From the NCBI GenBank assembly GCA_020628475.1, contig JAHDFB010000003.1, forward strand, positions 10,142 to 74,141: a DNA stretch of 64,000 nucleotides, read 5' to 3'. Source of the stretch: Saprospiraceae bacterium. GTDB lineage: Bacteria; Bacteroidota; Bacteroidia; Chitinophagales; Saprospiraceae. This document shows positions 1 through 53,076 of the stretch, piece by piece (position 1 is the first letter of the stretch; every line of letters starts with the position of its first letter). Made by a program: the position numbers and the translations under genes. The notes beneath the pieces are model-generated. The model did no database searches. It had not been told where the DNA came from and saw only the letters and a list, made by a program, of their open reading frames with translations.

Positions 1-1998
1 ATCTATGAATCGGGTTAATGTATCTGGGCAACCGCTCGGATGCAATACGATCAAATCAATTTTTTGCAAACCCGTATCTTGGAAGGTAAAGGTTGTATTC
101 GGCTGAAATACCGATGCATCATCATTAAATATATACTGCCAAGAAATAGCATCAATGGAATTATCTACGAAACTGACCACATTATCGTTACTTGTCACTC
201 GATCTGGGGTATAATCAAAATCAGCAATCGGGCTCTCCTTTACTTGAATCCAAAACGGGTAGGAAGCGCTGGAATAGCAACCAATAGGTGATGTAATTTC
301 CAAATCAACAGAGAAAATTCCGGTTTCTTCATAGATATGCAACGGACTAATGGTTGTATCTGTTTTCCCGTCTCCAAAACTCCAGAGAATGTCATAGGCA
401 TCGCTGATCGGTTGGGATAAATTATTAAACTTAATATTCGCTGGAAGACAACCTTCAAAAGTACTCGGCTCCACTATAATATTAGCTGGAGCTGGATAAT
501 ACGGAATATCAATGATCATCGAATCTTTACAATCATTGATATCGGTTACCGTCAGTTTGACGATTTTATTATCCGCTGTTGTAAATTCATAGTCATGATC
601 GGCTATTTTGACCGTATCTTCTCCATTGAGATCCCATTCCCAATCTAAAATAATACCAGATCCAGATTCACTGAAATCTTCAAACGTGATCGGCCCAGGC
701 TGACAAGTGTCATAATCATAGGTGTAATCTGCCTCGATCGGAGGAAAGACTTCGATGAACAACAAGGCTGTATCTCGGCATTCATCTGAATTCGGATTAA
801 TGATCAATTGACCAAAATATTCGCCGATTTCAGGAAATTCGATGGTCGGATTCTCTTCATTGGAAGTGACCGTCTCTCCTAAAATATCAAACTCCCATAG
901 ATATTCTTCGATGAAGTTTTTGTCTTGACTTAAATTTTCGAAAGTGATTTCATTTTCGCCGCAAGAGCGAATTAAAAATTCTTGCTCTTTAATCACAGCA
1001 TCATTCGCCACATCCGCATATACTAAAATTTGACAAGCCGTTACGTTAAATTGAAAATCTCTTCTAACCTCGCTCAATAGCTCGCCATTTAGATATTCCT
1101 TCACACAGACTCCAATAACAAATTGGCCTGTTAATTTCGGATTTGCCGTAAGCAATCCAGTAAAGGTATTCAGATTAATCCCACTCCCAGGGCCTAAGGG
1201 ATTATCGACCATAAAATCGGGTCCTTTAAAAATGACCTCGTCATATGGTGGAATACAGTTTGCTGGACTTGGAGTTACTCCTAAACAATCGGTAGGATCA
1301 CCCGGATTCTCATTCGTACCGAGTGTACCTCCTGAAGTAATAGGATTACAAAATTCATATATTAATTGATGGCCTTCATCATCCGATGCTTTGTGATCAA
1401 AAAATAGAGGCGTATTGGCACAGACCACAATCGGAGGGAAATTATCGAAGGTCGGCGAATTATTACATATCTGTTGAGCCAACGGACTAATTTCAACTTG
1501 AAATACCGCTCCTGTACTCTGTGGATTTACAATATTAACAATGGTGTTATTTCGGCAACAACGTTGATAAGTCAACAGATATGAATCATTGATAACCGGT
1601 ACGTTGATATTGAAAATATAAGTTCCTCGTTCAACACAAACATTTGTTGGTTCTTCGATACAAGGATCATCATTGATTGGAATAGAAACCTGTTCTGTTA
1701 AATTTGAAGTAAAGGTTTGTTGATAAACCCAGTTGTCACCGCTACCGGCATACAGACCAAATTCTGCGGGTTCATCGAATTGGGCTCCACCACCGAAACA
1801 ATCTCGATACATATTGAAGGTGATCTGAAAGGTAGCTATAGGGGTCGCAGAAGAACTATCAATGCCGAGACATTCATAATACACTTCTCCACCAATGATA
1901 TGTTTCGCTTCCAATCTTTGTGTAAATAGGACTGAAAGAAAAACAAAGGCCAGCATGTAAATATTTCTCTGCATAAAATAAATTTTCTGTCCTTTCAT
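1..1998 (-). CDS. T9SS type B (gliding-motility C-terminal domain family) secreted multidomain protein, N-terminal ~660 aa; 3' end lies beyond the window start
   Basis: The reverse-strand frame is open from the window edge up to ATG 1998 (alternative ATGs at 1974 and 1956). My translation reads MKGQKIYFMQRNIYMLAFVFLSVLFTQRLEAKHIIGGEVYYECLGID...YRDCFGGGAQFDEP, later GTNENPGDPTDCLGVTPSPA and VVSFVDNSIDAISWQYIF. It is colinear with the 766-aa protein at 2876-5176. It is absent from the ORF track because it has no in-window stop. Confidence 0.8.
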   Translation of the reverse strand, partial: MKGQKIYFMQRNIYMLAFVFLSVLFTQRLEAKHIIGGEVYYECLGIDSSSATPIATFQITFNMYRDCFGGGAQFDEPAEFGLYAGSGDNWVYQQTFTSNLTEQVSIPINDDPCIEEPTNVCVERGTYIFNINVPVINDSYLLTYQRCCRNNTIVNIVNPQSTGAVFQVEISPLAQQICNNSPTFDNFPPIVVCANTPLFFDHKASDDEGHQLIYEFCNPITSGGTLGTNENPGDPTDCLGVTPSPANCIPPYDEVIFKGPDFMVDNPLGPGSGINLNTFTGLLTANPKLTGQFVIGVCVKEYLNGELLSEVRRDFQFNVTACQILVYADVANDAVIKEQEFLIRSCGENEITFENLSQDKNFIEEYLWEFDILGETVTSNEENPTIEFPEIGEYFGQLIINPNSDECRDTALLFIEVFPPIEADYTYDYDTCQPGPITFEDFSESGSGIILDWEWDLNGEDTVKIADHDYEFTTADNKIVKLTVTDINDCKDSMIIDIPYYPAPANIIVEPSTFEGCLPANIKFNNLSQPISDAYDILWSFGDGKTDTTISPLHIYEETGIFSVDLEITSPIGCYSSASYPFWIQVKESPIADFDYTPDRVTSNDNVVSFVDNSIDAISWQYIFNDDASVFQPNTTFTFQDTGLQKIDLIVLHPSGCPDTLTRFID

Positions 1999-2294
1999 GA
2001 CTTGTGCATTTTACTATTAATAAAGAACTCTAAAACTCGAATTTTATTGCTCTGAACCAAAGTTAACAACTAATAAATCAGCAACAAAGTTTAAATTGTC
2101 AAACGGAATATATTTAATTCAAATAAACCGTCTTGCACAGGATGATAAAAAGTTAATTTTTTCCTAATAAATTTTAGAATTTCAATACTTTTCCTCATTT
2201 CATTGGCGTTTCTTGTACGAACATTTGAAATAATCAACGGACTATATCAAATGTGAACGAACATTCCTGTATCTAAAACTCGAGAAACCATTCT

Positions 2295-2864
2295 ATGATT
2301 AATGACTCTTTAATTAATGAAACCGCTGCGATTCTACATGAAGGAAAGACTATATTGTATCCAACCGACACTATTTGGGGACTAGGATGTGACGCCACGA
2401 ATGCGGACGCAGTGAAAAAAATCTTTGAAATTAAAGAACGATCACCAGAAAAGGCTTTCATCTTATTAGTAGATAGTATAGAAATGCTTAAAAACTATGT
2501 AAAAAAGATTCATCCTCGAGTTGAAACCTTACTTGTTTATCATAAAAGACCACTGACATTAATTTATAAAGAAGCTATAAATCTTCCTGACATCAGTCAA
2601 TCTAAAGATAAGTCCGTAGGAATTCGAATTGCCATTGATCCCTTTTGTCAACGATTGATATCGACTTTTGGCAAGCCCATTATCTCAACTTCGGCGAATA
2701 AAAGTAATGAAGGATCGCCAAAATTTTACGACGAAATATCACAATCCATTAAAACAGAGGTGGATTACATTGTCGATCACCGTCGAGAAGATAGAGAGCC
2801 TAAAGAACCGTCTATTATCGCTACTTTCGATAAAAATGGAGAGCTCAATATTATAAGGGGTTAA
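2295..2864 (+). CDS. tsaC: L-threonylcarbamoyladenylate synthase (TsaC/YrdC/Sua5 family)
   Basis: 189-aa ORF with YrdC-domain motifs ILYPTDTIWGLGCDATN and GKPIISTSANKS. Confidence 0.85.
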   Translation: MINDSLINETAAILHEGKTILYPTDTIWGLGCDATNADAVKKIFEIKERSPEKAFILLVDSIEMLKNYVKKIHPRVETLLVYHKRPLTLIYKEAINLPDISQSKDKSVGIRIAIDPFCQRLISTFGKPIISTSANKSNEGSPKFYDEISQSIKTEVDYIVDHRREDREPKEPSIIATFDKNGELNIIRG

Positions 2865-2875
2865 GTACCTCTTGA

Positions 2876-5176
2876 TTAACGTATGAGCGTGATGACACCT
2901 TTTTCTTCAATCAATTGCTGATCCGCATCGAGATAGCTGTATTTGTACACATAAATGTCCGAAGGTAATTCACGACCTTGATTATTAATTCGGCCATTCC
3001 ATCCTAAGGCGATGTCATCCGATTGGAACACGCGTTCCCCCGATCGCGCATAGACCTCCATGTAAAAGTCTTCGATCAAATCTATATTTCCTTTACCTTT
3101 GAATAGATCATTGATTCCATCCCCATTCGGAGAGAAAGCATTCGGAATAAAAAAGCTTGAAGTAGGGCGTATCAATAATGTCTTCATGATTGTGTCGGGA
3201 CAACCACTTGGGTGAAGCGCAATCAGTTCAATCGTATGAAGTCCGATAGTATCAAAAACATAATTTGGATTAGGTTGATAAACTGTATTTTCATTATCGA
3301 ATATATACTGCCAACTAATCGCATCCGTCGATTCATTTCTGAATTGAATCACAACATCATTTCCTTCCGGATTTTCAGGGGTAAATGAAAAATCAGCAAT
3401 CGGCGCAGGCAATACTTCAATCCAAAAAGGATATTCTCGGCTTACATAACAATCCAATGGGCTGGTTATCTCAATTCCTACTGAATAAACACCCACTTCC
3501 TTGTAATCATGCACTTCATTGAGATTTGTTCCAAAGGTACCGTCTCCGAAATCCCATAGTATATCGTAGCTATCATCTATTGGAGTAGAAAGATTATTAA
3601 AAATAATATTGGCGGGAGAACAACCAGCAAACGTATTCGGTTCGACAACAACGACCGGAGGTGCCGGATAATAATCAAATTCTTTTTCGATCATATTCGA
3701 GCAACCATTTAAATCGGAAGTCGTCAATCGAACGGTTTTCGTACCAGGAGTCTCATAAAAATAATCGGGATCCTGAATATTACTTCCATCTCCTCCATCA
3801 AACTCCCAGTCCCAGGTCAATATAACGCCAGTCTCACTCATCGAGGCGTCTTCAAATTTGACCTTTTCAGCAACACAGGTATCGTAATCCAATTCAAAAT
3901 CTGCCACCATATCTGGATACACATCGATTTCAAGGAATAAGGTATCCGAACATCCATTACTTTCTGGATTCAAAACCATTAAACCTGTATAAAAACCAGG
4001 TTCAGGAAAAGGGACGGAAACATCTCTCGTATCATATTCGACAGTTTCTGTTGGTGATAAGAAGAATCTCCACAAATATCCTTCAATCGTCGCTTCATCT
4101 TCCGATTCATTGATAATATCCAATGGTTCATCTCCGCAATGTTCTAATTTGAGATTTTTCCCAACGATAACCTCAGCATCTTCAATAGCCGCACTTACAT
4201 TGATTATACATTCCGTAACATTGAATTGAAAATCTCGTTGAACAACACCTAATAATTCTCCATCCAGATACTCACTTATACAAACCCCGACCACATATTG
4301 CCCCAATTCCATAGGACTTCCAGTCATCATTCCTGTATTGGAATTAATCTGCAAATTTGCCGCAGTTCCCAGTGGATTCGAAAAACTAAAATTGGGTAAT
4401 TTGAACACCAACTCATCATATGGTGGTGGGCACATGGAAACATCTGGATTGATTCCTTCACAATCCCAGACATTACCAGGATTTCCAAATAAACCATTCG
4501 TTCCTCCACCATCTAATGGTGCACAAAATTCATAAACCAAGGTATGTCCATCCGGATCCGTAGCACTGTGATCAAAAACAAGATCTTTATTTCCACAAAT
4601 GATGGGAGGTGGTAAGTCATTAAATTTTGGTGAGTTATTACAGATTTGTTGTGCTAACGGAGAAATAGAAACCGTGAATGAAACGCCAGCTTCCTCCGGC
4701 TGTACGATATTTACAATCGTATTATTTCTACAACATCGTTGGTAAACAACCATATAAGATTCATCATTTGAAACCGGAAATTGAAATTCGAATTCATACG
4801 TTCCTTCGTCCAAACATACATTTGCTGGTGGTTCGATACAAGGATCATCGGTCAAAGGTAAATCCGCATCAATACTGATACCCGCATTCTTAAACTCAAC
4901 AAATTCCCAATCATCACCTGATCCTCGAAACAAATAAAAATCACCCGGATCATCGAATTGTGCTCCTCCACCCTGACAGTCCCGATACATTTTAGCTGTA
5001 AATGCAAACGTTGCGTATTCTACCCCATTGATCACATCAATACCCAAACAATCATAGGTTATTTCACCTCCTACCAAATGCGCAGAATACAGATCACGAG
5101 GGCCGATCAAGAAAATCAGGAAAGCAAGGACGAACATTACATGTTTCGATATGCTGTAATAAGTAGACATAAACAA
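2876..5176 (-). CDS. T9SS type B sorting-domain (gliding motility-associated C-terminal domain) protein with PKD-like repeats
   Basis: 766-aa ORF with a hydrophobic N-terminus and a Cys-rich N-domain (HLVGGEITYDCLG...YRDCQGGGAQFDD). It has PKD-like repeats (WDWEFDGGDG, WDFGDG). The C-terminal FFIPNAFSPNGDGINDLF motif is typical of type B T9SS tails. Confidence 0.85.
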   Translation of the reverse strand: MFMSTYYSISKHVMFVLAFLIFLIGPRDLYSAHLVGGEITYDCLGIDVINGVEYATFAFTAKMYRDCQGGGAQFDDPGDFYLFRGSGDDWEFVEFKNAGISIDADLPLTDDPCIEPPANVCLDEGTYEFEFQFPVSNDESYMVVYQRCCRNNTIVNIVQPEEAGVSFTVSISPLAQQICNNSPKFNDLPPPIICGNKDLVFDHSATDPDGHTLVYEFCAPLDGGGTNGLFGNPGNVWDCEGINPDVSMCPPPYDELVFKLPNFSFSNPLGTAANLQINSNTGMMTGSPMELGQYVVGVCISEYLDGELLGVVQRDFQFNVTECIINVSAAIEDAEVIVGKNLKLEHCGDEPLDIINESEDEATIEGYLWRFFLSPTETVEYDTRDVSVPFPEPGFYTGLMVLNPESNGCSDTLFLEIDVYPDMVADFELDYDTCVAEKVKFEDASMSETGVILTWDWEFDGGDGSNIQDPDYFYETPGTKTVRLTTSDLNGCSNMIEKEFDYYPAPPVVVVEPNTFAGCSPANIIFNNLSTPIDDSYDILWDFGDGTFGTNLNEVHDYKEVGVYSVGIEITSPLDCYVSREYPFWIEVLPAPIADFSFTPENPEGNDVVIQFRNESTDAISWQYIFDNENTVYQPNPNYVFDTIGLHTIELIALHPSGCPDTIMKTLLIRPTSSFFIPNAFSPNGDGINDLFKGKGNIDLIEDFYMEVYARSGERVFQSDDIALGWNGRINNQGRELPSDIYVYKYSYLDADQQLIEEKGVITLIR

Positions 5177-5338
5177 ATCTTTACGTAATAGTAATATGCA
5201 GATGATTGCTAAGATAAGGGATTATTAAGAGATCGCCATCTTAATACATCTTTATTACATGAATGTATTACAATATGTGTTTAAGAATACTTTTTAGCAA
5301 TATTCTGCTGCGTATGTGTTACATTTTTTAGATGTACA

Positions 5339-6892
5339 CTAGTCCTTTAAAAAATCGGCAAATATATTTTCGAAATTAAGTACTTCTTGGGCCTTTAGAA
5401 TAAATGGATCTCTAGCATATTTTTGCAATCGAGCTGGATCCTGTAATCCTAATTGATACAATATTTCTGTCTGAACCAAATTAGTATGTAAATCAACAGC
5501 AGCTGGGTCAACAATTCCATGATCCAGCATAAATTGTTCTTCGTTTTCCTTAGCACTTTCCACCATAACTTGCGCATTGAAATCGGGCATTTGACCAGGC
5601 CGTAGTCCGAGTCTATTGACAATGCTAAAAGCTTCAGACACAACCGTCCTTCTGGTTATATCTTCTGTTTTCATCATGACATCATCATACTGGACGACAT
5701 AGTCTGGCATAATACCACCCTGCGCGTCTAAAGGACGTTGTAAGGTTTTTGTCTTATATTCAATGGTATCATTGATCTGATCAATATCGTAAGGTGTTTG
5801 AATATATCTTCCCGACGGCGTAAAATATCGTGCCGTTGTCAATCGAATACTACCGCCATTGTTCAAATCAAATTGATCTTGAACCAAGCCTTTACCATAA
5901 GACTGTTCACCGACTATAATTCCTTGATCCCAATCTTGAACCGCTCCTGCAATAATTTCACTAGCACTAGCTGAATTTCGATTGATAATGACCGCCAATT
6001 TTTCCACTCTATAGAAGGGCCTACCTGTCGTTTTATATTCCGACTTATTATTTTTCCCTTGCGTGTAAACAAGTAAACGCTTATCCTCCTCAAATAACTG
6101 ATTTAAGATTTTAGTGGCTTCTTGAAGATATCCACCAGGATTATTTCTCAAATCGATGATCAAAGATTCAATGATCTTATCCTTTTGAAAATATTCCAAA
6201 GCCTTTACAATTTCCTCATAGGTATCATCGCTAAACTTTTCTATATTCATGTAGGCATTATCACCGATATAAAAGTAATCTACATTTGGATATTGAATTT
6301 TTTCTGGTTTAATTTCCACCTGTTTCAGCTGATTCTGAACATCCAGTAATTGCATGGAGATCGATTGTCCATCATCCACTTTCAGTAATGCCCACTGATC
6401 TTCTACGGCCATACCCACTCCGGCAACCATGGTGTCTTGAATATTGATAATTCGATCACCATATGACAAGCTGGCCTTTTCAGCAGGAGAACCTTCCATC
6501 ACTTTTGTAATTCGAAGCGTATCATCAAGTACAATGGTTTCTATGCCCACTCCCCTATAATAACCAGACATACGTTGATTGATCTTTCCAATATCCGTTG
6601 CAGGAATATATACTGAATGAGGATCTAATTGATCAAAAATAGCGATTGTTGCGGCATCCATTAATTTCTCTTCATCGACCTCATCCACATATTTTGACTC
6701 GATAAAACGAAGCAACTCTTCCAATCTCCCAATTTTTCCTTCCTCTCCTTCATAACTTTTTATGAGACTCATGGATCGCCCGTTTTGCTCACCGGACATT
6801 CTAAAACCGACGAGCATTCCAAAAGCCGTAAAACCAGCAAATAACAGCGGATACCAAATTTTTGATTGTTGTAACTTCGATTTTCTTGTCAT
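5339..6892 (-). CDS. S41 family C-terminal processing peptidase
   Basis: 517-aa ORF with an N-terminal TM helix, a PDZ-like segment (KVMEGSPAEKASLSYGDRI) and S41 motifs NRNSASASEIIAGAVQD and GEQSYGKGLVQ. Confidence 0.85.
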   Translation of the reverse strand: MTRKSKLQQSKIWYPLLFAGFTAFGMLVGFRMSGEQNGRSMSLIKSYEGEEGKIGRLEELLRFIESKYVDEVDEEKLMDAATIAIFDQLDPHSVYIPATDIGKINQRMSGYYRGVGIETIVLDDTLRITKVMEGSPAEKASLSYGDRIINIQDTMVAGVGMAVEDQWALLKVDDGQSISMQLLDVQNQLKQVEIKPEKIQYPNVDYFYIGDNAYMNIEKFSDDTYEEIVKALEYFQKDKIIESLIIDLRNNPGGYLQEATKILNQLFEEDKRLLVYTQGKNNKSEYKTTGRPFYRVEKLAVIINRNSASASEIIAGAVQDWDQGIIVGEQSYGKGLVQDQFDLNNGGSIRLTTARYFTPSGRYIQTPYDIDQINDTIEYKTKTLQRPLDAQGGIMPDYVVQYDDVMMKTEDITRRTVVSEAFSIVNRLGLRPGQMPDFNAQVMVESAKENEEQFMLDHGIVDPAAVDLHTNLVQTEILYQLGLQDPARLQKYARDPFILKAQEVLNFENIFADFLKD

Positions 6893-7165
6893 AATTTCAA
6901 ATCTGCTTCAAATATATAGTATTAATAGAAGCTTCAGAGATATACTCGACCAATCTGTTAAAAAAGCAGCGAAACGAACATTGATGGAATCCCTTTTTTA
7001 GGAACTTGTTGAACGAAAATTTAACATATACACAAGTTATACATATATTTGACATTGATGCTCTGAGTTCAACAAGTATGTATGTTTTATAATATGTAGC
7101 ATTACACTTCCGATATATCATCAAAGACTTTTACTGAATCATAGGTACTTAATAAATTTATTACA

Positions 7166-46890: not shown

Positions 46891-47619
46891 TCAAATATTT
46901 TCATTCCAATAATAACTATCGGGTTGTATCCGCTCTCCAAAAATGGCGGTTCCAATACGAATCATAGTTGATCCTTCTTCAATAGCTATCTCCAAGTCCT
47001 TACTCATCCCCATCGAAAGCTCGTACATCTGTACGTTAGGAATTCTTAATTGATTAATCTCCTCTTGCACTTTTCTTAATAAACGAAAACACGTTCGTAC
47101 ATGTTCAGTGTTTGAACTTAATAATCCAATAGTCATGAGTCCTTTAATTTTCAAGGTATCAAAAGTTGCGATTTTTTGAACAAACTCGACGGCTTGTGCG
47201 GGATCTATTCCAAATTTGCTCTTCTCATTCGAGCTATTGACTTGGACCATAACCTCTATCGTTTTTCCTTCTCGTACTAATCTTTTATGTAATTTTTCTG
47301 CCACCCCCAGACGATCAATGGATTGAATACAGCTCGCATATTTAATGACTTCCTTAATCTTATTCGTTTGTAGATGTCCTATGAAGTGTATTTCGGGTTT
47401 CAAAGAAGAAATGGCATCTGCTTTCTGTTTTAATTCTTGGACCTTATTTTCACCGATTAGAGTCTCTCCAAGTTCCAAAGCATTTCGAATTGATTCTACA
47501 TTGACTGTTTTTGTTGCTAAGAGTAAACGAACCTCGTTTATATCTCGATGCGCCCTATTACATGCTCTTTCTATACGTTGATGAATGTTGAGCAGATTAG
47601 ACCTTAATTTTTCTTCCAT
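46891..47619 (-). CDS. yggS: YggS family pyridoxal-phosphate homeostasis protein
   Basis: 242-aa ORF with LLATKTV (PLP lysine region), IGENKVQE and IGHLQTNK. Confidence 0.85.
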   Translation of the reverse strand: MEEKLRSNLLNIHQRIERACNRAHRDINEVRLLLATKTVNVESIRNALELGETLIGENKVQELKQKADAISSLKPEIHFIGHLQTNKIKEVIKYASCIQSIDRLGVAEKLHKRLVREGKTIEVMVQVNSSNEKSKFGIDPAQAVEFVQKIATFDTLKIKGLMTIGLLSSNTEHVRTCFRLLRKVQEEINQLRIPNVQMYELSMGMSKDLEIAIEEGSTMIRIGTAIFGERIQPDSYYWNENI

Positions 47620-48683
47620 TATTTTTGATTCTTAGCGACGTAGACCCAAATTTCTTTTCCAGAAATAGTCACTTGTTTTACTCTTTCGTAAGCATCCACC
47701 TCATATTCATCTGAAGCTAAAAGTTCTTGATAACTGAGCTCAAAGATTGATCCTTGAATCTGGTCCTTGGGATTATCCGTTTTAATGGCAATGGGATGTA
47801 CACTTTTTCCACTAATTGAAACAACTGCTGGGTCCTGGATTTCTAGTTCCTCGATTTTGAACCCATTTAAGAAGCCTTTTTCACCCTGTAATTTGCGTCC
47901 ATAGGTGGACATTTGGACTGACTCCGATTGCAATGTTCCATACGAAAACAGATAACTTTTTTGTTCATTTTCTTTCTGCTTTTCTAATTGAATAATTTGC
48001 CTTTTAATAGATCGTAATGTTATATCCTTGGCCTCAGCATATGAAATTTGATAGGACCTTTCAATCTTCCTGAACTTTTTGGGATAATCACTGAGTAGAT
48101 CGTCGTAATATTTGTCTAGAGCTCTTTTATTAGGAAGTTTGAAGCACAATTTTAATTGAAAGCGTCTCAATAGAGCGGTATCAATACTTTCTATGAAGTT
48201 CGTTGCTCCTATTAGTATCACATCATTTGGTAACTGATCAACGAGTTGGATCACAGTATTGACCAATCGCCTCATTTCACCCGAAGCATTATTGGATTCC
48301 TCATAGCTCCTTGTCTTTGCTAATAAATCAAATTCATCAATAAACAAGACGGCTTTACCTCGAACAGCCTGATTAAATACATGAGCTACATTTTTGGCGG
48401 TTTCGCCTAATCTTGCTGAAATAAACCCACTCAAATTCAGAATGAAAATTCTTTTATTAAGAGCCTTTGCAATGGAACGAGCTGTAGCCGTTTTACCACA
48501 GCCTGTGAATCCATGTAATAAAATTTTATTGTCGATTGGAAGATTAAACGCTTTCAATGCAGTGTAATAATGAAACTCTTCCAACAAATGAGTCAATATC
48601 TTCCTATTTGAATCACTCAAATGGATTTTATCAAGTGGAAGAGCCTCATCTCGAGGAGTAATCGTGAGATTAATTGATGGCAT
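47619..48683 (-). CDS. classic AAA+ ATPase fused to a C-terminal gamma-glutamylamine cyclotransferase (GGACT/AIG2)-like domain
   Basis: 354-aa ORF with Walker A GFTGCGKT, Walker B VLFIDEFD, sensor-1 IGATN and SRH ALLRRF. The C-terminal ~110 aa carry FSYGTLQ, GSIFEL, SDEYEVDAYERV and WVYV, as in the GGACT/AIG2-like fold. The stop overlaps the yggS start (TAATG). Confidence 0.75.
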   Translation of the reverse strand: MPSINLTITPRDEALPLDKIHLSDSNRKILTHLLEEFHYYTALKAFNLPIDNKILLHGFTGCGKTATARSIAKALNKRIFILNLSGFISARLGETAKNVAHVFNQAVRGKAVLFIDEFDLLAKTRSYEESNNASGEMRRLVNTVIQLVDQLPNDVILIGATNFIESIDTALLRRFQLKLCFKLPNKRALDKYYDDLLSDYPKKFRKIERSYQISYAEAKDITLRSIKRQIIQLEKQKENEQKSYLFSYGTLQSESVQMSTYGRKLQGEKGFLNGFKIEELEIQDPAVVSISGKSVHPIAIKTDNPKDQIQGSIFELSYQELLASDEYEVDAYERVKQVTISGKEIWVYVAKNQK

Positions 48684-48754
48684 AGCTTAATAATTCTAGA
48701 TGGTTTTGATGAATTCTATCTACTGGTGAAATACTATGGACATTAAGACTAATG

Positions 48755-49321
48755 TCATGCTTCAAATTCATGGCAGTCTATTCGTACCTCTGATGTTTGA
48801 AGGCGTTGATCTAGTAAGGTGCAATAATGCTTCGCATTTTTATCTCCACTATAAAAGCGACAATTGTAACAGATTCTTTGTACTTGAATTATTCCTTTTT
48901 GATTTAATTGATAAATCAGCTTAGTAATAACATCAAAAAACATCGCGAGATCTTGTTCTTTCAAGGTCGACAACTCATTTTCTATAGGAAAGGCGTAAGA
49001 AACCAAATCTTTCACTAATTCCTTTCCCTTTACACTAAGTAATAGATTATACCTTCGATTGTCTCGAGGAGAGAAATCTTTGTCAAGAAGGTCTTTCCTT
49101 ACAAGAACTCGTACGGCATCACTAATAGTAGCCTTGGTTACATTGAATTCCTTGGCCAAATAACTCACGTTACAGATTTCTGTTTTATGATGCTCCACAA
49201 ATAAAAGAATCTGTATTTGTATAGGGCTTATTCCATGGACTTTAGCTTTTTCCCACAATAGTGATTTAAGCACTTCTGAGATGCGCTCCAATCCGTTGAG
49301 AATTTTGGCTTCTATTTTCAA
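48755..49321 (-). CDS. MarR-like winged-helix regulator with C-terminal Cys/His cluster
   Basis: 188-aa ORF with a wHTH (ICNVSYLAKEFNVTKATISDAVRVLVRKDLL). The C-terminal end reads CYNCRFYSGDKNAKHYCTLLDQRLQTSEVRIDCHEFE. Confidence 0.65.
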   Translation of the reverse strand: MKIEAKILNGLERISEVLKSLLWEKAKVHGISPIQIQILLFVEHHKTEICNVSYLAKEFNVTKATISDAVRVLVRKDLLDKDFSPRDNRRYNLLLSVKGKELVKDLVSYAFPIENELSTLKEQDLAMFFDVITKLIYQLNQKGIIQVQRICYNCRFYSGDKNAKHYCTLLDQRLQTSEVRIDCHEFEA

Positions 49322-49338
49322 ATTATCAGAAATTATTT

Positions 49339-49375
49339 AAAATTAGGATTACTCAAAGTTAGTAATCCTAATTTT
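49339..49375. promoter_or_regulatory. perfect inverted repeat AAATTAGGATTACT-N7-AGTAATCCTAATTT; shared cluster motif overlapping a -7 box
   Basis: The arms are 49340-49353 and 49361-49374. The reverse complement of 49354-49361 is TAACTTTG, which matches TAnnTTTG 33 nt upstream of ATG 49321. T-runs follow the hairpin in both directions, so it may also terminate the upstream gene. Confidence 0.5.
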
Positions 49376-49378
49376 AAA

Positions 49379-49744
49379 TCAAGAAGTACATCCTTCCATT
49401 TCAATGATAAAATATCCTTTCTTATTAATTTCTGCTTCCCATTCTGGCCGTAAACTTTCTATATGACAAAGTCTGCATTCCTTCGCGCTTAATGGCTGTC
49501 CTTCCTGACTTTTCATTTTAAGATACGCCTTCCCGTACTCATAGATGGTCGTTCTTTCTTTGACTTCAATGGGTACGATGATGTCAAAGTGCATCAAAGA
49601 ACCATCCTTTTTAGTCACATAGGTATCCCAAACATTTACTTTCCTTTGCAATTTCATTTCCATATTCCTTTGATTTAGTGAATAAAATATTTTTCCGGTA
49701 TACAATATGAGCAGTAATAGCCCTATCCCTCTAATCATTTTCAT
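49379..49744 (-). CDS. DUF2024-like protein
   Basis: 121-aa ORF. The core (VNVWDTYVTKKDGSLMHFDIIVP ... ECRLCHIE ... GYFIIEMEGC) resembles the DUF2024 family as I remember it. The hydrophobic N-terminal 27 aa may be a leader, or the true start may be ATG 49663 or 49657. Confidence 0.55.
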   Translation of the reverse strand: MKMIRGIGLLLLILYTGKIFYSLNQRNMEMKLQRKVNVWDTYVTKKDGSLMHFDIIVPIEVKERTTIYEYGKAYLKMKSQEGQPLSAKECRLCHIESLRPEWEAEINKKGYFIIEMEGCTS

Positions 49745-49768: not shown

Positions 49769-50506
49769 TTAATAACTTACGGTATAAGGAAGTGACAAGT
49801 CACCGGATGCAATAGAATAAACGGCATATACTCCAAGCATAGGTCTCTCAGAATCTGAAGCATTTACTTGCATATAAGCACTTACAGCATCAAACTGAAA
49901 ATTGGTTTTATTCTTAATTCGGTATGCTGGAACAATTACTCGAATCGTATGCCCTTTCGCAACTACATGAAATCCTGGTGAATCCATGTACATGGGCATT
50001 CCTGGATTAGTAGTCGGTAAAATCACTTGATCGCGAGCCGCGTCAAATTGTTTAACAGAAAGTCCTCCTCGCACTCTTTTGTCTTCCTGTAATACAACCC
50101 AATGGGGATGCCAGATTCCTCCTTCGCTCATGTTACTTGGATTACCATCCATATCTTCATCCCACAGTGGGGTATCATCAAAATCGGGATGAGAGGTCAC
50201 CGCAAGAGCTACAATTCCATCAGTTTGACTAAATCCTACATCAGCTGGCTTCAGAGTGGTTGGAAAAACATATCCCAACACAGGAGCTCCATCCATAGAT
50301 CCGACTGCCTCTGGATACGATTTGCCAGCCTTTCCCGCCACCGCTATAGTAAATATGAAATGCTCTAACCGATCATCATAAAGCACCGATGTATTGGTGA
50401 TTTTCAAATCTGGACTATTTTGAAAAGATGGGTCTTCATTTTCTCCCTGTGCAGAAAGTATTGCTATACTATAAAAGAACATAAACAGGATAATTAAAGG
50501 TTTCAT
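49769..50506 (-). CDS. hypothetical secreted protein
   Basis: 245-aa ORF with a signal peptide (MKPLIILFMFFYSIAILSAQG). I recognised no family. It has a His/Asp-rich patch (SHPDFDDTPLWDEDMDG ... WHPHW). Confidence 0.55.
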   Translation of the reverse strand: MKPLIILFMFFYSIAILSAQGENEDPSFQNSPDLKITNTSVLYDDRLEHFIFTIAVAGKAGKSYPEAVGSMDGAPVLGYVFPTTLKPADVGFSQTDGIVALAVTSHPDFDDTPLWDEDMDGNPSNMSEGGIWHPHWVVLQEDKRVRGGLSVKQFDAARDQVILPTTNPGMPMYMDSPGFHVVAKGHTIRVIVPAYRIKNKTNFQFDAVSAYMQVNASDSERPMLGVYAVYSIASGDLSLPYTVSY

Positions 50507-50524
50507 AAATATGATTGTTGTAAA

Positions 50525-50582
50525 AAATTAGGATTACTACAAGAGACGCAGGCGTCAACATTAAGTTAGGAATCCTAATTTT
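50525..50582. promoter_or_regulatory. second copy of the cluster motif (AAATTAGGATT ... AATCCTAATTT arms with 35-nt spacer; core TTAGGAATCCTAA)
   Basis: The arms are 50525-50535 and 50571-50581, with an inner palindrome GACGCagGCGTC. The 21-mer at 50562-50582 matches 49355-49375 at 19 of 21 positions. It sits 56 nt upstream of ATG 50506 and just downstream of the stop at 50606. Confidence 0.5.
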
Positions 50583-50605: not shown

Positions 50606-50839
50606 TTAAGCTCTAAGGTCTTCAATCGAAGCGCCAAAGTTGATATGTAACACATTTCCTGAAGGTGTAATCAAGGCTGGAACAGATTTGACACCAGCGA
50701 TTACGGCTTCTTCCACGCGGCTGCTGTCTTCACCGATATGCACGACGTCGACATTTTCTGCTCCGACTAATTGGATGATATCTTCTTCTGCATGGATGCA
50801 AACGGGACATCCAGCATGATAAAAAATAGATTTACTCAT
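50606..50839 (-). CDS. small thioredoxin-fold protein (CPVC; redox-active disulfide protein 2-like)
   Basis: 77-aa ORF with a CPVC motif at residues 11-14 and a downstream VPAL (cis-Pro-like). Confidence 0.65.
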   Translation of the reverse strand: MSKSIFYHAGCPVCIHAEEDIIQLVGAENVDVVHIGEDSSRVEEAVIAGVKSVPALITPSGNVLHINFGASIEDLRA

Positions 50840-50885
50840 AATTTAAATCTTTAAAAAGGACATTAGCAATATTGCTAGAACAAAT

Positions 50886-50906
50886 ATAGTTAGGATTCCT
50901 TATTAT
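50886..50906. promoter_or_regulatory. third copy of the cluster motif (ATAGTTAGGATTCCTTATTAT)
   Basis: It matches 50562-50582 at 16 of 21 positions. The palindromic core is AGGATTCCT. It sits 47 nt upstream of ATG 50839. Confidence 0.4.
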
Positions 50907-51024: not shown

Positions 51025-53076
51025 ATGGAAACGTCCTTATTCGCAAATGAAGAACGCTTTAAAAAGCAAGCTCAGAAAGCCGCAAGATCTATTGTAATTT
51101 TCTTGATTTGTTACTTTATCATTTTTATACTCTCTTTAGCCCTGGCTATCGCTATCATGGCTGGTGGTTTCTTTATTATTGCCAGTCATCCTTCATTCCT
51201 TACCTTGTTATTGGGTGGTGGATTGATGGTAGCAGGAGCATTGATATTATTTTTCTTGTTCAAGTTCATGTTTAGCATCAAAAAAATAGATCGATCTGAT
51301 TATATAGAGGTATATCGCACGGATCAACCCGCTCTCTTTGATACGATCGATCGCGTCGTTCAAGGAACCAACAGTGTATATCCAAAGCGTGTTTATCTGA
51401 CCAACGATGTCAATGCCATGGTTAGTTATGATTCTAGTTTCATGAGTTTATTCGTTCCCACGAAAAAAAACCTGATTATCGGATTAGGCCTAATGAACAG
51501 TCTGTCAACGGCAGAATTTGAATCTATTCTTGCCCATGAATTTGGTCATTTTTCGCAGGACTCCATGAAATTCGGTTCTTATGTATATCAAATTAACCGT
51601 ATACTATTCGATCAATTATATGACAACGATTCTATCAATCGTTTTATTCAACGCTTTAATCAGTCCGGTATCATAACCTTGATGATGGTGATCGGAGTCA
51701 AAATAATTATAGGCATTCAATTCTTATTGACGAAACTCTATGAATTTGTCAACAAAAGTTATCTGGCCTTGTCTCGAGAAATGGAATTTCAGGCAGATTT
51801 GGTAGCGGCACACTATAGTGGCAAAAAACCATTTAAAAGTGCTTTGTTGCGCACCGATCTTGCCAGCTTTTCCTATCAAGAAACGCTACAATTCTTTACC
51901 AATAGAATGTCACAAAATCTGGTGACGGATGATGTCTACGAATTACAGGATTATACCATGAAGTATATCGCTTCTAAGAATAAAATTGCTGTAAAAAATG
52001 GATTTCCCGATGTGTCCTTAGACGATATCAATGCCTATCAGAATACAAAGATTAACATTGAAAATCAATGGGCTTCTCATCCTTCCACGCAGGATCGATT
52101 GGAAAATATCGAACGTATCGAACATCAAGAACGTATTTCCAATGAGACCCCAGCCATTGATTTGCTGGCCAATAAAGCATCTATTGTTTCAAAGATTACT
52201 AAAAACTTATTCAAACACGTTCCATATAAAGGGGCCTTGGTGCAGGTTGAAAACAAACAGTTCGAAAAGGATTATGCCAACGATTTTGAACGGTTTGCGA
52301 TCGATCCTTATTTTAATAATTATTATCGCTACACCGATCCTGCCACGCGTATCAAAAAGAAAGATGCTGCTGTAAGCAATGTAGAAAGTCTTCAAGATTT
52401 CTATAGTCCTGAGAACATTAAAATGGCCCAAAAATACGGTGCTTTGGTCAACGATTTAGCCACACTAGAATCGATCAAGCCTAAAGAATCTGGCATTAAA
52501 TTTTTCGAATATGACGGTAAGAAATATACTCGAAATCAAATTGATGCATTGATCGAAAAATTAGAAGCAAAAAAAGAAAAAAACGAAAAGAAGGTAAACA
52601 AGCATAATCGATTCATTCTGGCGTATTGTCTCCAAAAAGCGGAGGGAAGCGCCCTAGAGAAATCCTTAAAAAAGGCCCTGAAGCAATATGAGGATATTCA
52701 AGAAGATCTTATCAGTAAAGAGCAATCCTATTTGGAATTAACAGAAAAAGCAGAATTCCTATCCTATACACTTGAACCTGAGGTGATTTCCGACGAACAG
52801 ATAAAATTCAGATCAGTCGAAATCGATTGGAAAAAGTACCTGAAGCAAGTGCGTGAAGAAGTATCTTTCGAAACCTTACTAGGACACTACCTCGGTCAAG
52901 AGTTTGACAAATATTTAGAGAATGAACGGCCGCTTTTTAATGGATCACATTACAATGATTTTGTTGTCGAACGACTTGTCTTGATTCTACATAATATACC
53001 ACAATTATTACATAATCGGGCTTTGATTCAAAAGAAACAACTGGTAGAAATCATGAAAGAGATATTGGAATCTTAG
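51025..53076 (+). CDS. M48 family membrane metallopeptidase with long C-terminal helical extension
   Basis: 683-aa ORF with N-terminal TM helices and the zinc motif HEFGH (ILAHEFGHFSQD). Confidence 0.8.
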   Translation: METSLFANEERFKKQAQKAARSIVIFLICYFIIFILSLALAIAIMAGGFFIIASHPSFLTLLLGGGLMVAGALILFFLFKFMFSIKKIDRSDYIEVYRTDQPALFDTIDRVVQGTNSVYPKRVYLTNDVNAMVSYDSSFMSLFVPTKKNLIIGLGLMNSLSTAEFESILAHEFGHFSQDSMKFGSYVYQINRILFDQLYDNDSINRFIQRFNQSGIITLMMVIGVKIIIGIQFLLTKLYEFVNKSYLALSREMEFQADLVAAHYSGKKPFKSALLRTDLASFSYQETLQFFTNRMSQNLVTDDVYELQDYTMKYIASKNKIAVKNGFPDVSLDDINAYQNTKINIENQWASHPSTQDRLENIERIEHQERISNETPAIDLLANKASIVSKITKNLFKHVPYKGALVQVENKQFEKDYANDFERFAIDPYFNNYYRYTDPATRIKKKDAAVSNVESLQDFYSPENIKMAQKYGALVNDLATLESIKPKESGIKFFEYDGKKYTRNQIDALIEKLEAKKEKNEKKVNKHNRFILAYCLQKAEGSALEKSLKKALKQYEDIQEDLISKEQSYLELTEKAEFLSYTLEPEVISDEQIKFRSVEIDWKKYLKQVREEVSFETLLGHYLGQEFDKYLENERPLFNGSHYNDFVVERLVLILHNIPQLLHNRALIQKKQLVEIMKEILES

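What the first reader, a model, noticed from the sequence alone, without database searches (positions are those of the whole stretch)
47619..48683. AAA+ ATPase fused to a GGACT/AIG2-like cyclotransferase domain, translationally coupled to yggS
The ORF combines a classic-clade AAA+ module with a C-terminal ~110-aa domain. The AAA+ module has GFTGCGKT, VLFIDEFD, IGATN and ALLRRF. The C-terminal domain carries signatures of gamma-glutamylamine cyclotransferase/AIG2-like proteins (FSYGTLQ, GSIFEL, SDEYEVDAYERV, WVYV). GGACT-type enzymes act on gamma-glutamyl-amine (isopeptide-like) linkages. Fusing one to a protein-remodelling ATPase suggests an unfoldase-coupled de-modification or peptide-processing activity that I do not know as a described system. 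Its stop overlaps the start of the PLP-homeostasis gene yggS (TAATG at 47617-47621), which implies co-expression.
Basis: partly seen in the sequence, partly recalled or inferred. Interest (0 to 1): 0.6.

Follow-up and report, generated by a model that had tools for sequence, protein, structure and literature searches.

The report
AAA ATPase–GGACT fusion beside YggS paralog
A real but uncharacterised bacterial gene joins an ATP-driven protein-remodelling module to a small gamma-glutamyl-amine-cleaving enzyme domain, and comparative genomics ties both to a second, divergent copy of the vitamin-B6-binding protein YggS, whose biochemical job is still unknown.

Summary
ORF 47619-48683(-) encodes 354 aa with every quoted motif, and its stop overlaps the next start (TAATG). 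Pfam assigns AAA to residues 54-182 and GGACT to 245-352, above its cut-off.

New points:
- **AAA module.** It is a truncated IetA-like core. It lacks IetA's N-domain and an IetS protease, so it is not an IetAS member. Arg replaces the pore-loop-1 aromatic.
- **Neighbouring "yggS".** It is a divergent paralog, "YggS2". The genome has a canonical copy elsewhere, and the two clades split at 100/100.
- **Three-way link.** GGACT is fused C-terminally to the AAA in one AAA clade. It lies as a separate gene upstream of the AAA in another. It is fused to YggS2 in a third family.
- **Domain decay.** The window's GGACT keeps YGTL and the catalytic-position Glu, but only 32 of 84 fused relatives keep that Glu.
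- **Context.** The gene is an optional insert in a patchy MarR-controlled cassette.

My best reading is a small-molecule gamma-glutamyl-amine enzyme plus an ATP-driven remodeller serving a PLP-binding YggS2. This is inference only.

The parts
47619..48683 (-). AAA-GGACT fusion gene, 354 aa
   Evidence: ORF; two Pfam domains; homologues aligned full-length.
48525..48683 (-). N-terminal ~53-aa extension, conserved in the family. It corresponds to IetA profile positions ~89-140. The ~90-100-aa N-domain that precedes this stretch in true IetA is absent.
   Evidence: PADLOC IetA match covers residues 18-246 against profile 89-319/374. Alignment A4 with true IetA.
48138..48524 (-). AAA+ ATPase core, residues 54-182. 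It carries Walker A G58-T65, Walker B D116/E117, sensor-1 N162 and Arg fingers R173/R174. Pore-loop-1 reads S-A-R91-L-G-E, with no aromatic residue.
   Evidence: Pfam PF00004; alignment to Rix7 D1/D2; motif positions.
47964..48137 (-). Helical lid of the AAA module plus linker, residues 183-240, including ISYAEAKD.
   Evidence: IetA/IteA profiles align through residue ~246-250. The stretch is conserved in A1.
47628..47951 (-). GGACT/AIG2-like domain, residues 245-352. It has YGTL (248-251) and D325-x-Y327-E328 intact.
   Evidence: Pfam PF06094, 33.5 bits against a cut-off of 22.8. Subfamily alignment A3. Profile alignment to solved GGACT/AIG2 structures.
46891..47619 (-). YggS-family paralog ('YggS2'), 242 aa. 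Its start overlaps the fusion gene's stop. The PLP-lysine K37 and the HxIGxLQxNK, SMGMS and RIGTAIFG motifs are kept.
   Evidence: TIGR00044, 189 bits. Second, canonical copy at G000:C81. Tree split 100/100. Motif conservation 42-45 of 45.
48755..49321 (-). MarR-type regulator with a Cys-rich C-terminal tail, 71 nt upstream of the fusion gene.
   Evidence: Pfam MarR_2, E 1.3e-12. Next to the AAA in 24 of 80 related loci.
49379..49744 (-). DUF2024 protein of the same cassette.
   Evidence: Pfam PF09630, E 1.6e-31. Found in 19-21 of 80 related loci.
49769..50506 (-). Secreted 245-aa conserved hypothetical protein of the cassette.
   Evidence: No Pfam or NCBIfam family. 61-62% identical copies sit in the same gene order in G153 and G268.
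50606..50839 (-). 77-aa CPVC thioredoxin-fold protein, first gene of the cassette.
   Evidence: Weak glutaredoxin-domain hit. 70-71% identical copies in G153/G268. Present in 22 of 80 loci.
49335..49379 (.). Perfect 19-nt inverted repeat upstream of the MarR gene, a likely operator. Related copies lie at 50524-50582, with a half-site at 50885-50904. There is none in the 71-nt gap before the fusion gene.
   Evidence: the repeat finder I1, I3, I5, I15; sequence.

Best explanation
The gene encodes a single-ring, IetA-type AAA+ ATPase. Its C-terminus carries an intact member of a small stand-alone GGACT subfamily. It is co-translated with a PLP-binding YggS paralog (YggS2) inside a MarR-controlled accessory cassette.

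Most likely mechanism:
1. The GGACT domain is a small-molecule enzyme. It cyclises the gamma-glutamyl part of a free gamma-glutamyl-amine to 5-oxoproline and releases the amine.
2. The AAA part does not thread polypeptides. Like its relative IetA, it uses ATP to hold or remodel a partner protein, most plausibly YggS2. This could open it, load it, or strip a ligand or adduct from its exposed PLP.
3. The fusion arose because the GGACT gene sat between the AAA and YggS2 genes in one operon. It merged with one neighbour in some lineages and with the other neighbour elsewhere.

Shown here: the domain identities, intact motifs, paralogy of YggS2, repeated independent AAA-GGACT-YggS2 associations, and decay and loss of the GGACT domain in most relatives.

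Inferred: the substrate class, AAA action on YggS2, and hexamer formation.
For: **Domains and motifs.** The AAA is closest to IetA (163 bits; the next family scores 63 bits). PADLOC gives IetA at E 1.4e-53.

**GGACT subfamily signature.** F8, S9-Y10-G11-T12-L13, Q19, R25, G73, D87, Y89, E90, R96 and W108-x-Y110 of alignment A3 are all present in the window copy. DxYE aligns with the 'DDFE' of mouse GGACT.

**AAA-GGACT link, seen twice.**
- All 17 fused forms among 92 rows fall in one clade of 32 (SH-aLRT 95), with stand-alone forms nested inside it.
- The three loci with a separate GGACT gene directly upstream of a 241-246-aa AAA (L021, L032, L055) lie in a different clade.

**AAA-YggS2 link.**
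- YggS2 is adjacent in 39 of 80 loci, in three gene orders.
- In an 81-genome genus-level sample, 9 of 9 genomes with YggS2 also have the AAA, against 1 of 72 without it. The two genes are adjacent in 7.
- In a 301-genome class sample, 3 genomes have both, always adjacent, while 8 have the AAA and 7 have YggS2.

**GGACT-YggS2 link.**
- 39 of the 120 best relatives of P0137 are 326-408 aa, and 35 of them carry PF06094 plus PF01168. They include Tenacibaculum finnmarkense, Lentimicrobiaceae, a Cardiobacteriales MAG and Chitinophagales.
- P0137's YggS part sits in the YggS2 clade.
- P0292 aligns collinearly across 'AAA-GGACT | TAA | YggS2' of T. holothuriorum.

**Other support.**
- YggS2 keeps the PLP lysine in 45 of 45 rows.
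- IetA is reported as an ATPase antitoxin that restrains a partner protease (passages of PMC13069673).
- Pore-loop-1 lacks the aromatic residue.
Against:
- **The AAA does not need YggS2 or GGACT.** Five complete genomes with the stand-alone AAA have only the canonical YggS, and two of them have no GGACT of this subfamily.
- **YggS2 does not need the AAA.** G153, G268, G271 and G109 have YggS2 and no AAA.
- **The GGACT domain is usually degenerate.** In 52 of 84 fused relatives the catalytic-position Glu is replaced, G249 is kept in only 43 of 84, and many lineages lost the domain. Catalysis is therefore dispensable for the AAA's core role.
- **The GGACT subfamily is a promiscuous fusion partner.** Of 30 longer representatives scanned, six carry GNAT and two carry MerB. 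Chorismate lyase, DUF922, SulP-STAS, M24, GrpB, 4HBT, PNPOx and YggS occur in one each, and 14 have no partner named. A fusion alone is weak evidence of a shared pathway.
- **Co-occurrence counts are not phylogenetically independent.**
- **The PDB profile matches are marginal.** E is 1.8e-5 at best.
Confidence: 0.4

Rival explanations
1. The GGACT domain is a non-catalytic adaptor, or a decaying passenger. The AAA has a function unrelated to PLP. Its neighbourhood with YggS2, MarR and DUF2024 reflects co-inheritance of a mobile cassette, not a shared pathway.
For: - Only 32 of 84 fused relatives keep the Glu, while structural residues are kept in 81-83 of 84 (G311, D325, R334, W346, Y348).
- Stand-alone AAA forms nested among fused ones imply repeated domain loss.
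- The AAA occurs without YggS2 and the reverse.
- In loci without YggS2 the neighbours are unrelated housekeeping genes: an RNA methyltransferase, DUF1853, a ZIP transporter and HtrA.
- The distribution is patchy: 14 of 301 genomes.
Against: - The window copy and its closest relatives (about 24 of the 84) keep every signature residue of the stand-alone subfamily.
- GGACT joined the AAA in two different AAA clades and in two architectures.
- GGACT is also fused to YggS2 in a separate family.
- The AAA-YggS2 pairing survives gene-order changes.
Confidence: 0.25
2. One reading: an unfoldase-coupled de-modification machine. The AAA ring unfolds a modified protein and the GGACT domain removes gamma-glutamyl (isopeptide-type) marks from it.
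For: A classic-clade AAA with intact ATPase motifs is fused to a domain whose family cleaves gamma-glutamyl-amine bonds.
Against: - Pore-loop-1 has Arg, and Lys/Arg across the family, where translocating AAA rings have an aromatic residue.
- There is no substrate-recognition N-domain.
- GGACT chemistry needs a free alpha-amine on the glutamyl group (recalled from enzymology, not tested). Only mono-gamma-glutamylated amines could be substrates, not cross-links or Pup-like tags.
- The catalytic Glu is lost in most fused relatives.
- No ligase, transglutaminase or tag gene recurs nearby.
Confidence: 0.1
3. An IetAS-like toxin-antitoxin or anti-phage pair. The IetA-type ATPase restrains an effector, here the fused GGACT enzyme or YggS2. 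On infection or stress the effector depletes a gamma-glutamyl metabolite or sequesters PLP.
For: - The best family matches are IetA and a prophage family of unknown function, phrog_3757, at E 9.8e-54.
- IetA acts as an antitoxin to its partner (PMC13069673 passages).
- The distribution is patchy.
Against: - It scores 163 bits against the 510 cut-off of the IteA equivalog.
- IetA's N-domain is missing.
- No IetS is found in the window or in the 61%-complete genome, whereas true IetA genes in five Bacteroidia genomes each sit next to an 808-873-aa ORF; the three of these that were scanned match IetS.
- The partners MarR, DUF2024 and YggS2 gave no convincing defence-family match.
- YggS2 and GGACT exist stably without the AAA, which argues against toxicity.
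Confidence: 0.1

Closest known systems
IetA, the AAA ATPase antitoxin of the IetAS toxin-antitoxin / anti-phage system
   Same: It is the closest sequence family for residues 18-250 (NCBIfam IteA 163 bits, PADLOC IetA E 1.4e-53). It shares the single AAA ring. It shares Lys/Arg at the pore-loop-1 aromatic position with one IetA subtype (L121, L122). It probably acts on a partner protein rather than as a general unfoldase.
   Different: It has no ~90-100-aa N-terminal domain and no C-terminal IetA tail. It has no IetS protease partner. It scores below the equivalog cut-off. It carries a GGACT domain instead and pairs with YggS2.
GGACT / AIG2-like gamma-glutamylamine cyclotransferases (PF06094; mouse GGACT 1vkb/2kl2, Arabidopsis AIG2-like 2g0q/2jqv, E. 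coli YtfP 1xhs)
   Same: It passes Pfam's cut-off. The N-terminal YGTL motif and the acidic residue of D-x-[YF]-E align with these structures.
   Different: It belongs to a distinct subfamily of ~110-125-aa proteins (1312 representatives at E<=1e-3). No direct phmmer hit to any solved chain was found. It has an inserted I-x-D..V...SG...HPI segment relative to the solved ones. The substrate is unknown. Here it is fused to an ATPase.
YggS / PLPBP / PipY (COG0325) PLP-homeostasis proteins
   Same: The neighbour gene passes TIGR00044 and keeps the PLP lysine and the family motifs.
   Different: It is a separate clade: 32-41% identity to canonical copies against 50-67% within the clade, with a 100/100 split. 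It occurs in addition to the canonical gene in G000, G172, G153, G268, G336 and G337. Known YggS contexts in the passages I read are sepF, proC, pipX and cell-division genes (PMC5504682 passages), not AAA or GGACT.
AAA+ enzyme 'activases' such as Rubisco activase and CbbX (analogy recalled, not tested)
   Same: This is a working analogy only. A small AAA+ ring remodels a partner protein to release a tightly bound ligand from its active site.
   Different: No sequence-level membership was tested or claimed. The partner here would be a PLP-binding protein.

Membership tests
Classic-clade AAA+ ATPase (PF00004) | Pfam gathering score; Walker A GxxGxGK[ST]; Walker B hhhhDE | tested here: met
   102.8 bits against 21.2. 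G58-F-T-G-C-G-K-T65, and D116-E117 in VLFIDEFD.
Classic-clade AAA+ ATPase (PF00004) | Sensor-1 Asn and second-region-of-homology arginine fingers | tested here: met
   N162 (ATN) and R173/R174 (ALLRRF) align with 'atN' and 'RRRF' of Rix7 D1. They are invariant in A1 and A4.
Classic-clade AAA+ ATPase (PF00004) | Aromatic-hydrophobic-Gly pore-loop-1, as in substrate-threading members | tested here: not met
   'sARLGEt' aligns with 'nKYVGEs' of Rix7 D2. The family has R or K at this position.
IetA of the IetAS system | Reaches the NCBIfam equivalog cut-off and covers the whole profile | tested here: not met
   163 bits against 510. Only profile positions 92-322 of 367 are matched. True IetA from L124/L125 match PADLOC profiles from position 1.
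IetA of the IetAS system | Adjacent IetS subtilisin-like protease partner | tested here: not met
   No IetS match among five window neighbours. None was found in the own genome with an IetS query, but that genome is only 61% complete. Controls: five Bacteroidia IetA genes each have an 808-873-aa neighbour; the three neighbours scanned match IetS.
GGACT / AIG2-like (PF06094) | Pfam gathering score | tested here: met
   33.5 bits against 22.8, residues 245-352 on profile positions 1-104 of 120. 36.4 bits in the genome search.
GGACT / AIG2-like (PF06094) | N-terminal YG[ST]L motif and the catalytic-position Glu | tested here: met
   Y248-G-T-L251 and E328 are present. The profile alignment puts D-x-Y-E on 'DDFE' of mouse GGACT. 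The catalytic role of that Glu is recalled from the literature, not read here.
GGACT / AIG2-like (PF06094) | GGACT fold and cyclotransferase activity | not testable with these tools
Activity needs an assay.
YggS / COG0325 (neighbour gene) | TIGR00044 cut-off; PLP-binding Lys and family motifs | tested here: met
   189 bits against 106.25. K37 is kept in 45 of 45 YggS2 rows, and H78/I80/G81/Q84/N86/K87 in 45 of 45.
YggS / COG0325 (neighbour gene) | Orthology to the housekeeping yggS | tested here: not met
   A second, canonical copy lies at G000:C81:28023-28643. Identity between the two is 32%. The clades separate at 100/100.

The most novel reading that the evidence does not exclude
AAA, GGACT and YggS2 form a previously unrecognised ATP-driven vitamin-B6 handling or repair system. 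YggS2 carries PLP or a conjugated or damaged B6 vitamer. The GGACT enzyme frees an amine from a gamma-glutamyl conjugate. One candidate that would also explain the single GGACT-PNPOx fusion (P0215) is gamma-glutamyl-pyridoxamine(-phosphate). The IetA-like ring opens YggS2 to load or unload the cofactor. If so, this module would expose the long-sought biochemical activity of the YggS/PLPBP family.
Probability: 0.15. Interest if true: 0.85.

Novelty: new variant of a known kind. Interest (0 to 1): 0.55.

Why it matters
[quoted passage not shown] Here a YggS paralog is repeatedly fused to, or co-translated with, two proteins of definable chemistry: a gamma-glutamyl-amine cyclotransferase and an ATP-driven remodeller. 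That gives a concrete, testable handle on what YggS-type proteins bind or hand over.

The reference list of that same paper cites a report of ophthalmic acid, a gamma-glutamyl peptide, accumulating in an E. coli yggS mutant (title only seen). This makes a gamma-glutamyl link worth testing.

The finding also shows an IetA-type ATPase core working outside the IetAS toxin-antitoxin setting, whose own anti-phage mechanism 'remains unknown' (PMC13069673 passage).

If the link is only co-inheritance, the finding is an ordinary, unannotated domain fusion.

Tried and rejected
I used one genome-contig scan and whole-genome searches instead.
I used profile-to-PDB sequence alignment instead.

**Searches that gave little**
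- phmmer of the GGACT domain alone against solved structures gave only chance-level hits, E>=0.19.
- The sigma-70 promoter and terminator scan was uninformative: 16 sites found against 15.7 expected. The only 'terminator' is the MarR operator palindrome.
- The Atlas look-ups returned only 'AAA family ATPase' clusters and 'hypothetical protein' clusters.
- A search of family f25 for fused GGACT-YggS forms found none in 41 genomes. Three had YggS2, and GGACT was on other contigs.

**Ideas rejected**
- That the AAA is a core Flavobacteriia gene. It is in only 14 of 301 class-level genomes at E<=1e-30, and six of those are true IetA.
- That the neighbour is the housekeeping yggS.
- That the MarR operator also precedes the fusion gene. 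No copy lies in the 71-nt gap.

**Tree caveats**
- In the AAA tree (quick method) two IetA outgroup rows (L124, L125) sit on a 6.66-long branch inside the ingroup, and L107 joins the other IetA rows. The tool flags these as possible long-branch artefacts. I draw no conclusion from the root.
- In building trees I left out ORFs under 200 aa of cluster 0 (the separate GGACT genes) and kept one AAA row per locus.

**Literature**
- Searches with IetA/IetS, AAA + cyclotransferase + AIG2 + fusion, YggS + gamma-glutamyl + ophthalmic acid, COG0325 + fusion/neighbourhood/paralog, and YggS + AAA + cyclotransferase listed no paper on this fusion or on a YggS-GGACT or YggS-AAA link.
- Only the top 12-15 of each list were seen.
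- Prunetti et al. 2016 (COG0325 comparative genomics) was seen only as a citation. It or its supplements might list such fusions. No supplementary files were opened.

**Unpublished genomes**
- The tallies include unpublished genomes G094 and G180, only as ordinary YggS hits. No specific claim rests on them.
Full report
**1. Observation**

ORF 47619..48683 (minus strand) is open for 354 aa. The stop TAA shares one base with the ATG of the next ORF, 46891..47619, giving TAATG at 47617-47621.

Pfam places AAA (PF00004) at residues 54-182 (E 2.5e-29). It places GGACT (PF06094) at residues 245-352 (E 6.8e-8, 33.5 bits against a cut-off of 22.8). The downstream ORF passes the YggS family model TIGR00044 with 189 bits against 106.25. 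The gene is real. Relatives at 71-72% identity cover its full length and start at the same Met. Earlier notes of this scan call the organism an uncultured Saprospiraceae bacterium (not tested). The assembly is a 61%-complete MAG.

**2. The AAA module**

Its best solved relatives are classic-clade rings: Rix7, p97/Cdc48 and Vps4. Walker A, Walker B, sensor-1 N162 and the two arginines of ALLRRF are intact and invariant in the family.

The nearest named family by a wide margin is IetA, the ATPase of the IetAS toxin-antitoxin / anti-phage pair.
- NCBIfam IteA scores 163 bits, and the next family (CdvC) scores 63 bits.
- PADLOC IetA gives E 1.4e-53.
- The prophage family phrog_3757 gives E 9.8e-54.

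It is nevertheless not an IetA.
- The score is far under the 510-bit equivalog cut-off, and only profile positions 92-322 of 367 are matched.
- Five bona fide IetA genes found in Bacteroidia genomes carry an extra N-terminal domain of ~90-100 aa. Each has an adjacent 808-873-aa ORF; the three of these that were scanned match IetS.
- No IetS was found among the window's neighbours or in the (incomplete) genome.

Where threading AAA rings have an aromatic residue in pore-loop-1, this protein has Arg91. 'sARLGEt' aligns with 'nKYVGEs' of Rix7 D2. The family has Arg or Lys there, as does one IetA subtype, while the other IetA subtype has Tyr. This weakens, but does not exclude, an unfoldase reading.

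**3. The GGACT domain**

An exhaustive search with residues 239-354 found 1312 representative proteins at E<=1e-3 and 455 at E<=1e-10. Most are stand-alone proteins of ~110-125 aa. The word-indexed search named some 'gamma-glutamylcyclotransferase family protein' (Microbacterium) at 48-51% identity.

In an alignment of 75 of them, F8, L13, G73, D87, Y89 and R96 are invariant. S9, Y10, G11, T12, Q19, R25, D32, L83, E90, Y94, G104, W108 and Y110 are >=90% conserved. The window copy has nearly all of these; D32 is Gly and L83 is Leu.

A profile of this alignment hits Arabidopsis AIG2-like proteins (2g0q at E 1.8e-5, 2jqv at 4.1e-5) and mouse GGACT (1vkb at 0.012, 2kl2 at 0.02). It aligns D-x-Y-E with 'DDFE' and LFSYGTL with 'FVYGTL'. 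That this Glu is catalytic is my recollection of Oakley et al. 2010.

**4. How common is the fusion, and is its enzyme domain alive?**

Of the 120 best homologues listed, 84 are >=300 aa. All 84 carry a C-terminal domain matching the subfamily profile. The other 36 are <300 aa, mostly ~240-aa stand-alone AAA proteins.

Structural positions are kept in the fused forms: G311 in 83, D325 in 81, R334 in 82, W346 in 81 and Y348 in 81 of 84. Catalytic-motif positions decay: G249 in 43, T250 in 30 and E328 in 32 of 84. Sixteen have lost the whole N-terminal strand. About 24, including the window's protein, keep the complete signature.

In a tree of 92 AAA modules (quick method), all 17 fused forms fall in one clade of 32 rows (SH-aLRT 95). 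The intact forms branch early in it. The nine degenerate forms make one derived clade (92). Stand-alone forms are nested among them, which implies loss of the domain.

Three loci in a different clade have a separate 114-135-aa GGACT gene immediately upstream of a 241-246-aa AAA gene: L021 Ulvibacter, L032 Putridiphycobacter and L055 Patiriisocius. GGACT and this AAA therefore became neighbours or fusion partners at least twice.

**5. The neighbour is a YggS paralog**

The genome has a second YggS-family gene at C81:28023-28643. It is 32% identical to the window copy.

In a 60-row tree the family splits at 100/100.
- One clade holds 15 canonical copies. These include the second copies of G000, G172, G153, G268, G011 and G264.
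- The other clade, 'YggS2', holds 45 rows. Of these, 40 lie next to the AAA, 4 have no AAA nearby, and one is the YggS part of a GGACT-YggS fusion.

Identities to the window copy are 50-67% inside the YggS2 clade and 32-41% outside it. T. holothuriorum and T. larymnensis also have both types. YggS2 keeps the PLP lysine (45 of 45) and the family motifs. Thirteen columns discriminate the clades.

**6. The three-way link**

(a) AAA and YggS2
- Three gene orders occur: AAA then YggS2; AAA, MarR, YggS2 (L019, L042, L066); and YggS2 then AAA in Flavobacterium.
- The gap is <=46 nt or an overlap in 26 of 32 AAA-then-YggS2 cases.
- In an 81-genome genus-level sample, 9 genomes have YggS2 and all 9 have the AAA. 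The two are adjacent in 7, split over contig ends in one, and unlinked in one. One further genome has the AAA only, and G338's 42% hit is probably an IetA.
- In a 301-genome class sample, 8 genomes have the AAA at >=45% identity and 7 have YggS2. Three have both, always adjacent.
- These counts are not phylogenetically independent.

(b) GGACT and YggS2
- A family of ~360-aa proteins has this GGACT domain fused N-terminally to YggS2.
- 39 of the 120 best relatives of P0137 are 326-408 aa. Of these, 35 have both PF06094 and PF01168 on record.
- Sources include Tenacibaculum finnmarkense, Lentimicrobiaceae, a Cardiobacteriales MAG and Chitinophagales.
- P0292 aligns collinearly (67% identity, one TAA inside) across 'AAA-GGACT | stop | YggS2' of T. 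holothuriorum.
- In its own genome the fusion has no AAA within 6 kb, but a stand-alone AAA lies on another contig.

(c) AAA and GGACT: see section 4.

Against a strict dependence:
- Five complete genomes with the stand-alone AAA have only canonical YggS. Three of them have an unlinked GGACT.
- Four genomes with YggS2 have no AAA.
- Where YggS2 is not adjacent, the AAA's neighbours are unrelated genes.
- The GGACT subfamily fuses with many partners. Of 30 longer representatives scanned, 16 had a named partner: GNAT in 6, MerB in 2, and YggS, PNPOx, chorismate lyase, DUF922, SulP-STAS, M24, GrpB and 4HBT in one each. The other 14 had none named.

**7. Cassette context**

The window's order is CPVC thioredoxin-fold (77 aa), secreted 245-aa protein, DUF2024, Cys-tailed MarR, AAA-GGACT, YggS2. 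The same order recurs without the AAA in G153 and G268, from two other families, with 40-71% identity per gene.

The AAA(-GGACT) gene is therefore an optional insert between the regulator and YggS2. A perfect 19-nt inverted repeat lies upstream of the MarR gene. Related copies lie upstream of the secreted-protein gene, with a half-site before the first gene, but none precedes the fusion gene. The fusion gene and YggS2 are probably read through from the MarR gene or from an unrecognised promoter. The sigma-70 scan is uninformative.

**8. Mechanism**

Shown:
- an ATPase-competent IetA-type ring without a threading-type pore loop;
- an intact GGACT-type active-site signature;
- a PLP-lysine-bearing YggS paralog;
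- recurrent physical and genomic coupling among the three;
- dispensability of the enzyme motifs in most relatives.

Inferred:
- The GGACT domain acts on a free gamma-glutamyl-amine. GGACT chemistry needs a free alpha-amine, so protein cross-links are unlikely substrates (recalled).
- The ring, like IetA towards IetS (PMC13069673 passages), acts on a partner protein, most plausibly YggS2.
- The fusion is a merger of operon neighbours.

I give this reading 0.4.

**9. Novelty**

The architecture is recorded in databases. Pfam pairs are on file, and sources name the proteins 'AAA family ATPase' or, once, 'gamma-glutamyl AIG2-like cyclotransferase'. None of my literature searches listed a description of it, of a YggS paralog clade, or of YggS-GGACT fusions (passages). 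Known YggS contexts in what I read are sepF, proC, pipX and cell division.

I rate it a new variant of known kinds. Interest is moderate. It would be high if the link to YggS biochemistry proves real.

Noticed in passing
window 46891-47619 and G000:C81:28023-28643: The genome carries two YggS-family genes. The window copy belongs to a divergent clade ('YggS2') found in scattered Bacteroidia and, by source names, in Chryseobacterium, Flavobacterium columnare, Niabella, Chitinophaga and Petrimonas. Thirteen alignment columns separate it from canonical YggS.
   Followed up: yes
L089 (G153:C7:1-10455) 1683-4482; L090 (G268:C2:1-9038) 2430-5420: A five-gene cassette (CPVC thioredoxin-fold, secreted 245-aa protein, DUF2024, Cys-tailed MarR, YggS2) occurs in the window's gene order in two other families, without the AAA gene. 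It looks like a transferable unit.
   Followed up: partly
window 49335-49379, 50524-50582, 50885-50904: A perfect 19-nt inverted repeat, with related copies, lies upstream of the MarR gene and the secreted-protein gene. A half-site lies before the thioredoxin-fold gene. It is probably the MarR operator.
   Followed up: partly
window 48738-48756: A small 7+7 palindrome overlaps the MarR stop codon. A partly similar stretch lies at 50858-50874, upstream of the first cassette gene. Function unknown.
   Followed up: no
P0137, P0284-P0321; L126 (G365:C7) 6001-7083: A family of ~360-aa GGACT-YggS2 fusion proteins, annotated only as 'YggS family pyridoxal phosphate-dependent enzyme', occurs in Tenacibaculum finnmarkense, Lentimicrobiaceae, Chitinophagales and a Cardiobacteriales MAG.
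   Followed up: partly
P0215 (320 aa, one 1558-nt contig): The same GGACT subfamily domain is fused to pyridoxamine-5'-phosphate oxidase (PNPOx_N + PNP_phzG_C). It is a single record, so the evidence is weak, but it is a second vitamin-B6 partner.
   Followed up: no
P0147, P0148, P0183, P0184, P0221, P0235, P0165, P0193 and others: The small GGACT subfamily is a promiscuous fusion partner. GNAT acetyltransferases are the commonest (6 of 30 scanned), followed by MerB (2). Chorismate lyase, DUF922, SulP-STAS, M24 peptidase, GrpB and 4HBT thioesterase occur once each.
   Followed up: partly
L121-L125 (G068, G004, G285, G089, G039): Apparent IetAS pairs occur in Bacteroidia genomes, and three were checked by PADLOC. 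There are two IetA subtypes, one with Tyr and one with Lys at the pore-loop-1 aromatic position. In three loci the IetS-sized gene is convergent with IetA rather than co-directional.
   Followed up: partly
L080 7227-7950 (Flavobacterium chungbukense): YggS2 is split into two ORFs (134 and 136 aa), with the two halves in different frames. This is a likely frameshift or pseudogene next to an intact AAA gene.
   Followed up: no
window 51025-53076 (+): A 683-aa membrane protein is divergently transcribed from the cassette. Its N-terminal half matches HtpX/M48-type zinc protease (weak NCBIfam matches, E 3e-10), and it has a long helical C-terminal half.
   Followed up: no
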